Shown here in pieces: positions 54,809 through 55,681 of a stretch of 64,000 nt of DNA (its first letter is position 1; every line of letters starts with the position of its first letter). A program made the translations under genes and the position numbers. The notes under the pieces are model-generated. The model searched no databases. It saw nothing but the letters and a program-made list of their open reading frames with translations, and was not told where the DNA came from. The DNA is from Dehalococcoidia bacterium (GTDB taxonomy: Bacteria; Chloroflexota; Dehalococcoidia; Lucifugimonadales; VXLM01), in the NCBI GenBank assembly GCA_963665745.1, contig OY762443.1, forward strand, positions 2,182,301 through 2,246,300. The letters run 5' to 3'.

Positions 54809-55681
54809 TCAATAGACACCGCCTCTCAGTTCAAAGCGTTCAGTGTCGATCGCCACTTCATCGAGTGCGGTTACGACGCCGACCTTGAGAATCGGGGAGC
54901 TATAGGAGTAGCGCCCGCTCACGTTGTCATAAAACCGTCCGAGCGGGTCGATCATGACATAGCTGCCCGTCATAAGGTCGTTATTCTCGGGCACTATTTC
55001 TATCCCGTTATTCTCGACACCACGATTGCGCTCGACGTACTGCTCGAATTCGTCGTCACTGATAGTGAATTCATTGATTCGAGCGTCGTTCTGCCCAACT
55101 ACCGGAAGCGCCTGAAATATCTTCCATCGCTCTGGCTTCATGTCCAATATGAACGAGCGAAAGTCCTCGGTGTGATTGAAGTGATTGACCACCGTATTCA
55201 CCTTCAGTCGGATGCCGCGGTCCTTGATCAATTCGCCCAACCGGATGTAATGTGAGGCGTCAATGGGATCCTTCCCCTTGACGACCCTGCCGATCTTGCG
55301 CTGGGTATCTGAACCCACACTATCGATGCTGAGCGCAATGATGTCGAGACAGCCCCTGAGGTCGTCCAGCCACGCCGCTGTTATGCGGGAGCCGTTGGTT
55401 ACTATGGATGTCGTGAGCCCGTAGGACTTTGTGCGGCGTATCAGATCGGAGAGCCAGGGGAGCAGGGTAGGCTCTCCGCCTGCGAAGTTAATCTTCTGGA
55501 AACCTGCCTCACAGAGCATATCCACAAGTTCACATGCTTTCTCAGCCTTCAACTGATCCCGGGCCGAAGTGTCCTCAAAAGTGGCAAAACAAAACCCGCA
55601 ACGCATGTTGCAGGCTTTCAGCATGTGGTAGTTGACTGTCGACGCTCTTCGGATTACTGGATGGACGTGCCTCTCTATCAT
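54809..55681 (-). CDS. Prokaryotic viperin homolog (pVip; radical SAM, RSAD2-like)
   Basis: Collinear with vertebrate viperin: VNYHMLKACNMRCGFCF (CxxxCxxC), KINFAGGEPTL, SIVTNGS, DIIALSIDS, LKVNTVVN, ERWKIFQALPVVGQN, MTGSYVMIDPLGRF, ILKVGV, RGGVY at the C-terminus. Confidence 0.85.
   Translation of the reverse strand: MIERHVHPVIRRASTVNYHMLKACNMRCGFCFATFEDTSARDQLKAEKACELVDMLCEAGFQKINFAGGEPTLLPWLSDLIRRTKSYGLTTSIVTNGSRITAAWLDDLRGCLDIIALSIDSVGSDTQRKIGRVVKGKDPIDASHYIRLGELIKDRGIRLKVNTVVNHFNHTEDFRSFILDMKPERWKIFQALPVVGQNDARINEFTISDDEFEQYVERNRGVENNGIEIVPENNDLMTGSYVMIDPLGRFYDNVSGRYSYSSPILKVGVVTALDEVAIDTERFELRGGVY

What the first reader, a model, noticed from the sequence alone, without database searches (positions are those of the whole stretch)
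54809..55681. Stand-alone prokaryotic viperin (pVip) next to an IS110 dimer and a REP cluster
The 290-aa radical-SAM protein is collinear with animal viperin/RSAD2. The match covers the CxxxCxxC cluster (CNMRCGFCF), KINFAGGEP, the WKIFQ...G.N segment, SY..D...RF and the C-terminal RGG.Y. Established knowledge: pVips convert NTPs into 3'-deoxy-3',4'-didehydro chain terminators and protect against phage. They are often encoded beside nucleotide kinases. In this window no kinase or nucleotidyltransferase lies within about 3 kb. The neighbours are REP-like hairpins, the IS110 pair and a divergently oriented NCS2-like nucleobase-type permease. The gene is clearly lower in GC than its surroundings (one 60-nt line hand-counted at 28/60).
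Basis: partly seen in the sequence, partly recalled or inferred. Interest (0 to 1): 0.7.

Follow-up and report, generated by a model that had tools for sequence, protein, structure and literature searches.

The report
Orphaned bacterial viperin defence gene
This is an intact bacterial viperin gene (an antiviral radical-SAM enzyme family that is already well known) in a Dehalococcoidia genome. It is not an original stand-alone gene but a 1.2-kb leftover of a larger conserved gene neighbourhood, and it kept its own conserved upstream leader.

Summary
The 290-aa ORF at 54809..55681(-) is a genuine prokaryotic viperin. It scores 310.9 bits on NCBIfam NF038283 (cutoff 180) and about 300 bits on the PADLOC pVip models. 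Its AlphaFold model matches mouse viperin with CTP at TM 0.86, against 0.62 for MoaA. It has an Asn-type nucleobase pocket, the type a 2023 preprint associates with making several ddhNTPs.

"Stand-alone" is true only as a secondary state. In 7 of the 10 closest Dehalococcoidia contexts read, the gene sits in one fixed slot: GT4 glycosyltransferase, rSAM/SPASM, O-methyltransferase | viperin, His_Phos_1 phosphatase | convergent SDR. The window keeps only 1.2 kb of that slot: the leader, the viperin and a frameshifted 73-codon stub of the phosphatase gene. The fragment is bounded by REP-like hairpins and by a tandem IS110 pair inserted into one REP unit.

A 96.6%-identical relative shares the truncation. 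dN/dS between the two is 0.30 (p=0.002), so the orphan is still under purifying selection.

The permease linkage does not recur (0 of 95 loci). Lacking a kinase is the norm. The low GC is intrinsic to the gene in every locus.

A 74-nt leader is conserved upstream of all clade members and has no Rfam match. Verdict: an ordinary new member of a known family with an informative history.

The parts
54809..55681 (-). Intact prokaryotic viperin (pVip) gene, 290 aa. Radical-SAM CxxxCxxC at residues 24-31, GGE at 68-70, and Asn253 at the position of mouse Cys314 in the beta-8 loop.
   Evidence: NF038283 at 310.9 bits against a cutoff of 180. PADLOC pVip models at 277-303 bits. PDB viperins at 3e-50; pLDDT 89.6 and TM 0.86 to 6q2p; beta-8 loop alignment; dN/dS 0.30 against L090, p=0.002.
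55679..55753 (-). Conserved 74-nt leader (candidate structured 5' UTR) running up to and including the start codon. It contains GACCU/AGGUC, GGUUGCU/GGCAACC, anti-SD UUCACC and SD GGGUGA.
   Evidence: Alignments. Covariance model R1 scores 87 bits here. Its matches (at or below E 1e-12) lie only upstream of viperin genes or the viperin relic of this clade. There are 0 differences in 79 nt against L090, compared with 3.3% in the gene. No Rfam match. The structure is plausible but not statistically supported.
55764..55791 (-). Putative promoter TTGCCT-16 nt-TATAGG. This is inferred from the sequence only and was not called by the consensus scan.
   Evidence: Read. The scan did not report it. Homology to the ancestral locus (L003) starts at 55767.
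54552..54769 (-). Pseudogene stub of the His_Phos_1 phosphatase that follows the viperin in related genomes. It covers codons 1-73 of about 223, is frameshifted near 54660, and is cut off at 54552-54563.
   Evidence: tblastn gives 60.5% and 73.7% identity to the L003 phosphatase, E 9e-19. HMM hits are 9e-12 and 2e-11. DNA homology to L003 ends at 54563. L090 shares the same stub.
54343..54562 (.). REP-like hairpin DNA that replaces the rest of the phosphatase gene. It includes an inverted pair (54356-54373 / 54439-54456) and CTCCGGCCTACGCCGGAGTGAC.
   Evidence: It is shared with L090 at 98% identity.
51432..54342 (-). Head-to-tail tandem of two IS110-family elements (2 x 1451 nt, each flanked by ATT), inserted inside a REP-like unit.
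   Evidence: In one search the joined flanks CCTGTCATT|CCGAACGCAGCGA match the reverse complement of the REP unit at 54445-54466 in 19 of 22 positions.
55807..55832 (.). REP-like palindrome just beyond the upstream end of the retained viperin fragment.
   Evidence: Its relatives are at 41991, 42497(-) and 51387.
55901..57724 (+). Divergent NCS2 (Xan_ur_permease) gene. It is a neighbour only and is not linked to viperins elsewhere. It is a 41%-identical paralogue of 49040..50782.
   Evidence: One search found no homologue in 95 loci.

Best explanation
The gene encodes a functional prokaryotic viperin, a radical-SAM enzyme. By homology to characterised viperins, it dehydrates ribonucleoside triphosphates to 3'-deoxy-3',4'-didehydro-NTPs (ddhNTPs), which terminate phage RNA synthesis. 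Its nucleobase pocket is the Asn type that is typical of prokaryotes, so it probably accepts more than one NTP.

In its Dehalococcoidia lineage, the viperin with its own promoter and conserved 74-nt leader normally occupies one fixed slot. Upstream lies a widespread GT4 / rSAM-SPASM / O-methyltransferase operon. Downstream lie a His_Phos_1 phosphatase and a convergent SDR gene.

In this genome only a 1.2-kb piece of that slot survives: leader, viperin and the first 73 codons of the phosphatase gene. It sits between REP-like repeats, next to a tandem IS110 pair that inserted into a REP unit. Because the fragment carries its own expression signals, it still works as a single-gene defence.

Shown here: family membership, fold, relic origin, inheritance of the truncation, and purifying selection. 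Inferred: the enzymatic products, the anti-phage role, the promoter, and any leader function.
For: Family membership. NF038283 scores 310.9 bits against a cutoff of 180, while MoaA models reach at most 66 bits against cutoffs of 231-325. PADLOC pVip models score 277-303 bits. The PDB sequence hits at or below 1e-43 (the 9 best distinct sequences) are all viperins. The AlphaFold model has pLDDT 89.6. Its 30 best Foldseek hits are all viperins, with TM 0.86 to mouse viperin plus CTP, against 0.62 for MoaA.

Substrate pocket. N253 and Y258 align without gaps to the Cys and Lys of the CTP-type loop FLNCTGGRKDPS. Asn at this position marks the promiscuous prokaryotic pocket (preprint).

Relic origin. 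DNA homology to the closest locus, L003, runs only from 55767 to 54563 (1206 nt, 87% identity). A frameshifted His_Phos_1 stub lies at 54769..54552.

Ancestral arrangement. It was seen in L003, L006, L007, L008, L009, L091 and L093.

Inheritance and selection. L090 comes from another sample and is 96.6% identical. It shares the stub and the REP DNA beyond the breakpoint. dN/dS between the window and L090 is 0.30 (14 synonymous and 15 non-synonymous changes, binomial p=0.002). Pairs still in the ancestral slot give 0.17-0.18. All 72 family-invariant positions are retained.

Leader. It is conserved in all 12 clade loci, including relocated copies, and is identical in L090.
Against: No biochemical or phage data exist for this protein or for its close relatives. 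The window shows no defence island around it: no neighbour hits a PADLOC model. dN/dS in the orphan lineage (0.30) is somewhat higher than for copies in the ancestral slot (0.17-0.18), though it rests on only 29 substitutions. The predicted promoter was not called by the consensus scan. The loss of the phosphatase, and of the adjacency to the GT4/rSAM/OMT and SDR genes, could matter if those genes are functional partners.
Confidence: 0.75

Rival explanations
1. In this lineage the viperin is a step in a multi-enzyme pathway rather than a self-sufficient defence gene. Its ddhNTP would be dephosphorylated by the His_Phos_1 enzyme and further tailored by the SDR, the GT4 glycosyltransferase, the rSAM/SPASM enzyme and the O-methyltransferase. 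Tailoring could include reduction, glycosylation or methylation. The window copy would then be an orphan that has lost its pathway and has a changed or reduced role.
For: The same gene order occurs in 7 of 10 close contexts with different flanks. An SDR stays next to the viperin in L005 even when it lies far from the trio. A distant lineage (L042/L075, viperin about 50% identical) again has a fused GT4-rSAM/SPASM gene, a WG-repeat protein and a different phosphatase (Polbeta NTase plus Y_phosphatase3) directly upstream of its viperin. The GT4 passes the Pfam 'GT4-conflict' threshold.
Against: The trio and the SDR are far more widespread and more conserved than the viperin: 2488 and 513 homologues respectively, with the top 120 of each at or above 74% and 66% identity. 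Of 23 contigs that appear, by matching contig lengths, to carry both rSAM and SDR, only 4 appear in the viperin list. The trio exists without a viperin (L094), and with only a decayed viperin (L095). The viperin has its own promoter region and leader. It persists under purifying selection without any partner in the window and L090, and it also occurs without any partner in L092. No partner has a PADLOC model.
Confidence: 0.13
2. The gene is a non-functional remnant on its way to decay. On this view it is an intact-looking ORF left behind by the rearrangement that destroyed its neighbours.
For: The adjacent phosphatase gene is frameshifted and truncated. Repeats and IS elements surround the fragment. 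A viperin in the same slot has decayed to a 28-codon stub in L095. dN/dS is higher than for copies in the ancestral slot.
Against: The ORF is full length with all family-invariant residues. Two lineages that share the truncation both keep it intact, with a significant excess of synonymous changes (p=0.002). The 79 nt upstream are identical between them, whereas the downstream pseudogene and REP DNA differ at 4.3% of positions.
Confidence: 0.08
3. The protein is another radical-SAM enzyme that merely resembles viperin, for example one related to MoaA, NirJ or PqqE.
For: A generic Radical_SAM Pfam hit, and weak hits (at most 67 bits) to many rSAM families.
Against: Only the viperin equivalog model passes its cutoff. 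The structural matches to viperins (TM 0.84-0.87) are far better than to any other rSAM enzyme (at most 0.66). The viperin-specific C-terminal extension and the RGGxY end are present.
Confidence: 0.01

Closest known systems
Prokaryotic viperins (pVips; Bernheim et al. 2021, from my own knowledge; Shomar et al. preprint 10.1101/2023.09.13.557418, read here)
   Same: Same family by curated HMM, fold, radical-SAM and GGE motifs, C-terminal extension and Asn-type beta-8 loop pocket. It is a single gene without a kinase, as are 88% of bacterial viperins.
   Different: It is not in a recognisable defence island in this window. It derives from a lineage-specific fixed slot next to a GT4/rSAM-SPASM/OMT operon, a His_Phos_1 gene and an SDR gene. 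It carries a clade-specific conserved leader. None of these three features appears in the preprint read here or in PADLOC-DB 2.0.
Animal viperin (RSAD2) with CMPK2; fungal and cnidarian viperin-like enzymes (PDB 6q2p, 7n7h, 7n7i, 9dfw)
   Same: 36-40% identity over the whole catalytic domain, TM 0.84-0.87, and the same predicted chemistry.
   Different: It has no N-terminal targeting helix and no kinase partner. Asn253 and Tyr258 replace the CTP-selective Cys314 and Lys319, and there is no equivalent of the UTP-selective Arg257. Selectivity for a single pyrimidine is therefore not expected.
IS110-family insertion sequences that target REP elements (e.g. IS621; from my own knowledge)
   Same: DEDD transposase plus Transposase_20 domains, no inverted terminal repeats, a short shared core (ATT), and insertion inside a REP-like unit.
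   Different: Here two copies lie head to tail and share one core. That junction has the same layout as the junction of an excised circle. This is a side observation and not part of the viperin function.

Membership tests
Viperin family (prokaryotic viperin, pVip) | Radical-SAM CxxxCxxC cluster motif and GGE SAM-binding motif | tested here: met
   C24-x3-C28-x2-C31 and G68-G69-E70 are present. Both are invariant in the 29-sequence alignment. Pfam Radical_SAM scores 66.6 bits. The preprint's methods use these two motifs as screening criteria.
Viperin family (prokaryotic viperin, pVip) | Score above the curated cutoff of the family's equivalog HMM | tested here: met
   NF038283 viperin_w_prok scores 310.9 bits against a cutoff of 180, covering 278 of 281 profile positions. 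PADLOC pVip models score 277-303 bits.
Viperin family (prokaryotic viperin, pVip) | Partial (beta-alpha)6 barrel closed by the viperin C-terminal extension | tested here: met
   The AlphaFold model has pLDDT 89.6 and pTM 0.88. Foldseek gives TM 0.86 and rmsd 2.0 over 287 columns to 6q2p, and the top 30 hits are all viperins.
Viperin family (prokaryotic viperin, pVip) | Nucleotide-binding residues, including the beta-8 loop nucleobase position | tested here: met
   The motifs NYH (17-19), K160-x-N162-T163, R185-W186-K187, S240-Y241 and R286-G-G-x-Y290 are conserved and aligned to solved viperins. Their roles are from my own knowledge. N253 lies at the Cys314-equivalent position, the Asn-type pocket.
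Viperin family (prokaryotic viperin, pVip) | Produces ddhNTP from NTP | not testable with these tools
   Requires an anaerobic enzyme assay, or LC-MS of expressing cells.
Viperin family (prokaryotic viperin, pVip) | Protects against phage | not testable with these tools
   Requires phage challenge of a host that expresses the gene.
Viperin family (prokaryotic viperin, pVip) | Frequent but non-defining: defence-island context or an adjacent nucleotide kinase | tested here: not met
   There is no kinase and no PADLOC hit among the neighbours. This is not disqualifying, because only 12% of bacterial viperins have a kinase.
MoaA (GTP 3',8-cyclase) and other rSAM/SPASM families | Score above the curated family cutoffs | tested here: not met
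   MoaA models score 58-66 bits against cutoffs of 231-325. NirJ, PqqE and similar models are all far below their cutoffs. TM to MoaA 1tv7 is 0.62.
IS110 family (neighbouring elements) | DEDD_Tnp_IS110 N-terminal domain plus Transposase_20 C-terminal domain | tested here: met
   131.8 and 81.2 bits respectively.
Any described riboswitch or leader family (for the 74-nt leader) | Match to an Rfam covariance model | tested here: not met
   No Rfam 15 match at E<=10 overlaps 55679..55753.

The most novel reading that the evidence does not exclude
The fixed slot is not a coincidence. On this reading, viperins of this Dehalococcoidia clade, and of the unrelated L042/L075 lineage, belong to an undescribed multi-enzyme viperin system. 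A dedicated phosphatase and SDR, together with the GT4, rSAM/SPASM and methyltransferase genes, would convert ddhNTPs into a different end product, for example a reduced, glycosylated or methylated 3'-deoxynucleoside. The 74-nt leader would be a new riboswitch-like RNA that gates viperin translation. The window would then show what remains when such a system is stripped down to its core enzyme and its regulator.
Probability: 0.15. Interest if true: 0.7.

Novelty: new member of a known kind. Interest (0 to 1): 0.35.

Why it matters
As a viperin, it adds little: the family, its chemistry and its anti-phage role are established, and kinase-less single-gene viperins are the majority.

The value lies in the history that the comparison exposes. 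It is a clear case of a defence gene carrying its own promoter and leader as a self-contained unit. That unit can be lost from, decay in, or be carried away from a preferred chromosomal slot. It is still under purifying selection after its neighbours were destroyed.

Two side products could be followed up cheaply. The first is a clade-specific conserved leader with no Rfam match in front of a gene whose product is toxic to polymerases, where tight regulation would make sense. The second is a recurrent neighbourhood (phosphatase, SDR, GT4-rSAM/SPASM, methyltransferase) that is absent from the defence catalogue and the preprint I could consult.

Tried and rejected
Permease linkage. tblastn of both window permeases against all 95 fetched loci (896 kb) found nothing. 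Pfam scanning of 113 immediate neighbours of 65 more distant viperins did not list it among the 25 families shown. Rejected.

Cassette remnants. A search of the 64-kb window for remnants of the GT4, rSAM/SPASM, OMT and SDR genes found none. Only the phosphatase stub is present.

Leader. There is no Rfam match. Covariance model R1 found no copy upstream of the 80 more distant viperin loci or elsewhere in the window, so no extra sequences were available for covariation. Both the nested and the kissing-loop folds are about 90-95% pairable, but covariation is not significant (12/500 and 95/500 shuffles). Single-sequence folding gives z = -0.81.

Promoter and terminator. The consensus scan found nothing useful.

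REP-like DNA at 54343..54562. It has no copy in other loci apart from L090.

Low GC as a sign of recent transfer. Rejected, because the viperin is lower in GC than its neighbours in every locus.

Phage origin. There is no close homologue in 50,697 phage records. Plasmid homologues are at most 44.5% identical.

Placement in the Bernheim et al. clades. This was not possible. The paper and its sequences were not held, and several literature queries timed out. Searches that did run found no paper linking prokaryotic viperins to glycosyltransferases or SPASM enzymes.

Full report
OBSERVATION. The ORF at 54809..55681 on the minus strand (ATG start, 290 aa) is present exactly as described, and so are all the quoted motifs. 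The gene has 0.533 GC against 0.617 for the window, and GC3 of 0.67 against 0.81-0.88 in neighbouring genes. Downstream lie two head-to-tail IS110-family elements. Upstream lies a divergent Xan_ur_permease (NCS2) gene, and further downstream a paralogous permease followed by a beta-carbonic anhydrase. No kinase, nucleotidyltransferase or PADLOC defence protein lies among the neighbours.

WHAT THE PROTEIN IS. Only one curated NCBIfam model passes its cutoff: NF038283, 'viperin family antiviral radical SAM protein', at 310.9 bits against 180. MoaA, NirJ, PqqE and the other radical-SAM models score at most 67 bits against cutoffs of 131-650. The PADLOC pVip models score 277-303 bits. Solved structures with E-values of 1e-43 or better (the 9 best distinct sequences) are all viperins or viperin-like enzymes, with 7n7h at 3e-50.

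An AlphaFold model built on 29 homologues has pLDDT 89.6. Its 30 best Foldseek matches in the PDB are all viperins. TM is 0.86 and rmsd 2.0 Å to mouse viperin with CTP (6q2p). The next radical-SAM enzymes reach at most 0.66, and MoaA reaches 0.62.

In the beta-8 loop, N253 and Y258 align without gaps to the Cys and Lys of the CTP-selective loop FLNCTGGRKDPS. According to Shomar et al. (bioRxiv 10.1101/2023.09.13.557418), Asn at the Cys314 position defines the pocket found in the vast majority of bacterial and archaeal viperins. They associate it with making several ddh-nucleotides. I therefore expect more than one ddhNTP product. This is an inference.

The public gene call for this protein is 271 aa (P0002, on a 3,145,608-bp contig). 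Conservation of residues 1-19, including the invariant N17-Y18-H19, supports the 290-aa form.

WHERE IT COMES FROM. The closest genomic relatives are Dehalococcoidia MAGs, at 89% and 73% identity. Reading the surroundings of the closest homologues changed the picture.

In L003 (89%), L006 (79%), L007 (77%), L008 (73%), L009 (71%), L091 (70%) and L093 (65%), the viperin sits in the same place. A GT4 glycosyltransferase, a radical-SAM/SPASM protein and a roughly 565-aa WG-repeat/dimerisation/O-methyltransferase protein lie upstream. A His_Phos_1 phosphatase follows in most of them, and a convergent SDR 'epimerase/dehydratase' closes the set. The outer flanks differ: restriction-modification and helicase genes in some loci, tryptophan or CoA-transferase genes in others.

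In the window none of these genes flank the viperin. DNA homology to L003 runs only from 55767 to 54563 (1206 nt, 87% identity). The region right after the viperin encodes the first 73 codons of the phosphatase. That stub is frameshifted near 54660 and then cut off. The window gene is therefore a 1.2-kb relic of the ancestral slot, not a primary stand-alone gene.

A short contig from an independent sample (L090, 96.6% identical) is collinear with the window from 55760 to 54441. It has the same stub and the same REP-like DNA beyond the breakpoint, so the truncated state is inherited.

IS IT STILL A WORKING GENE? Between the window and L090 there are 14 synonymous and 15 non-synonymous differences over 197 and 673 sites. 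That gives dN/dS of 0.30 and a binomial p of 0.002 against neutrality. Pairs still in the ancestral slot give 0.17-0.18. The 79 nt upstream are identical between the two, whereas the gene differs at 3.3% of positions and the downstream pseudogene and REP DNA at 4.3%. All 72 invariant positions of the family alignment are retained. This points to continued function after the neighbours were lost.

THE NEIGHBOURHOOD: PARTNERS OR JUST A PREFERRED SLOT? The rSAM/SPASM and SDR proteins are much more widespread and conserved than the viperin. They have 2488 and 513 homologues below 1e-30 and 1e-40, and the best 120 of each are at least 74% and 66% identical. The listed contig lengths show 23 contigs that carry both, and only 4 of these appear in the viperin list. 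This is an approximate comparison, because the lists are truncated.

Two genomes are especially informative. The genome whose viperin lies next to only the SDR (L005) has the trio 2.4 Mb away without a viperin (L094). The genome with a truly isolated viperin (L092, beside a MazE antitoxin and a TPR protein) has the trio followed by the leader and only about 28 codons of a decayed viperin, then the phosphatase and the SDR (L095).

My reading is that the trio...SDR locus is a lineage-wide locus. The viperin with its leader is an accessory occupant of one slot, subject to loss, decay and relocation, as expected for a defence gene.

One observation speaks for a functional link. Two metagenome contigs from a different lineage (L042 and L075, viperin about 50% identical) again have three genes directly upstream of the viperin, inside AbiE and type I restriction surroundings. 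These are a fused GT4-rSAM/SPASM gene, a Polbeta-nucleotidyltransferase/tyrosine-phosphatase-family protein and a WG-repeat protein. None of the partner proteins reaches a curated NCBIfam cutoff or matches a PADLOC model. I rate a true multi-enzyme viperin pathway at about 0.13-0.15.

THE LEADER. The roughly 75 nt before the start codon are conserved in every locus of the clade, including the relocated copies and the decayed copy in L095. A covariance model built from 10 of them scores 63-91 bits at these sites. It gave no other match at or below E 1e-12 in 886 kb of other viperin loci plus the window. It then found the independent L095 copy at 65 bits. Leader identity exceeds third-codon-position identity of the gene in 40 of 45 pairs.

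The sequence can form two alternative folds. One is a nested fold: GACCU with a distal AGGUC, a 7-bp helix GGYUGYC/GGCARCC, and a small hairpin whose loop is UCACC. The other is two hairpins joined by the same 7-bp contact as a kissing loop, with UUCACC pairing to the Shine-Dalgarno GGUGAA.

The 7-bp helix is 97% pairable and shows one U-A to C-G exchange with U-G intermediates. Overall covariation is not significant, because the sequences are few and related. Rfam 15 has no match. I regard it as a conserved cis-regulatory leader, with high confidence from sequence conservation. I regard it only as a candidate translational switch, with low to moderate confidence.

A plausible promoter, TTGCCT-16-TATAGG, lies at 55791..55764. 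This is read from the sequence only.

REPEATS AND IS ELEMENTS. The IS110 pair is ATT-[1451]-ATT-[1451]-ATT at 51432..54342, with 7 mismatches clustered at 52115..52413 and identical transposases. The joined flanks, CCTGTCATT|CCGAACGCAGCGA, match the reverse complement of the REP-like unit at 54445..54466 in 19 of 22 positions. The tandem therefore sits inside a REP-like unit, which fits what I know of the REP targeting of IS110-family elements. A REP-like palindrome family, GGATTCCCGCnTTCGCGGGAAT(GAC), occurs at 41991, 42497(-), 51387 (half copy) and 55807. The retained viperin fragment is thus bracketed by REP-like DNA on both sides. The mechanism that cut it out cannot be determined from one window.

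- Permease linkage: no homologue in 95 loci.
- 'No kinase' as a peculiarity: only 12% of bacterial viperins have one nearby. Among 113 immediate neighbours of 65 more distant viperins, only a handful were nucleotide kinases, while 13 carried a response-regulator receiver domain.
- Low GC as a local anomaly: the viperin is 0.04-0.09 lower in GC fraction than its neighbours in all ten loci examined.

VERDICT. This is a well-supported new member of a known family. It has an informative evolutionary history and two side leads, the leader and the recurrent neighbourhood. Neither lead is established.

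Noticed in passing
window 55679..55753 (-); also L003 8855-8928, L006 6141-6214, L007 7930-8003, L008 7931-8003, L005 9931-10003, L091 7932-8003, L092 7932-8003, L093 7924-8003, L009 7919-8003, L095 11377-11450: A 74-nt leader is conserved in front of every viperin, or viperin relic, of this Dehalococcoidia clade. It has no Rfam match. It can form a 7-bp long-range or kissing helix and an anti-SD/SD pairing. 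It is a candidate new cis-regulatory RNA, but its covariation is not significant with the 11-12 sequences available.
   Followed up: partly
window 51432..54342: Two IS110 elements lie head to tail and share single ATT cores. They are inserted inside a REP-like unit. The internal junction at 52886..52888 has the same layout as the junction of an excised IS110 circle. The 7 differences between the copies are clustered in 300 nt and leave the proteins identical.
   Followed up: partly
L003 4700-11424; L006, L007, L008, L009, L091, L093; L094 and L095 (without an intact viperin): A widespread Dehalococcoidia locus reads GT4 glycosyltransferase, rSAM/SPASM, WG-repeat/O-methyltransferase, ... His_Phos_1, convergent SDR. 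None of its proteins reaches a curated NCBIfam cutoff or a PADLOC model. The rSAM/SPASM protein is conserved at 74-94% identity across more than 120 clusters. Its function is unknown.
   Followed up: partly
L042 1395-6769 and L075 5472-10771: In a different lineage, a fused GT4-rSAM/SPASM gene (791 aa), a Polbeta-NTase/Y_phosphatase3 protein and a WG-repeat protein lie directly upstream of a viperin that is about 50% identical. AbiEii and type I restriction genes lie downstream, and a DEAD/UvrD helicase lies upstream in L075.
   Followed up: partly
L095 11377-11540: A decayed viperin, consisting of the leader plus about 28 codons (MTTANCHLIRTRNMRCGFCFAI...), sits in the ancestral slot of a genome whose intact viperin lies 1.8 Mb away (L092).
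   Followed up: yes
L015, L020, L022, L029, L034, L036, L047, L048, L053, L057, L061, L062, L085 and others (about 250-aa ORF just upstream of the viperin): Of the 113 immediate neighbours scanned around 65 more distant viperin loci (44-56% identity), 13 carry a response-regulator receiver domain, 4 of them with LytTR. This is more than the number that are nucleotide kinases.
   Followed up: no
window 54809..55681: The public gene call for this protein (P0002) is 271 aa and starts at Met20. It omits 19 conserved N-terminal residues, including the invariant NYH motif.
   Followed up: yes
window 49040..50782, 50793..51293 and 55901..57724: Two paralogous NCS2 permeases (41% identity) both carry a conserved C-terminal extension of about 170 aa with no Pfam match. 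The first is followed by a beta-carbonic anhydrase.
   Followed up: no
window 57770..59052: A second low-GC patch (0.52-0.54) contains an HTH_73-domain protein (106 aa). It also contains a 283-aa ORF with no Pfam or PADLOC match, a Thr/Pro-rich region, and what looks by eye like a lipoprotein-type signal peptide.
   Followed up: no
L003 11945-18205; L075 10-4047: A giant DEAD plus UvrD helicase (1725 aa) gives PADLOC DpdF-like hits of 378 bits and GajB-like hits of 186 bits. It is followed by an HNH protein and lies next to the viperin locus in L003. A similar helicase lies next to the L075 locus.
   Followed up: no
window 42760..48609: A 1949-aa secreted-looking protein made of many repeated modules ends in leucine-rich repeats. 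This was read from the translation only.
   Followed up: no
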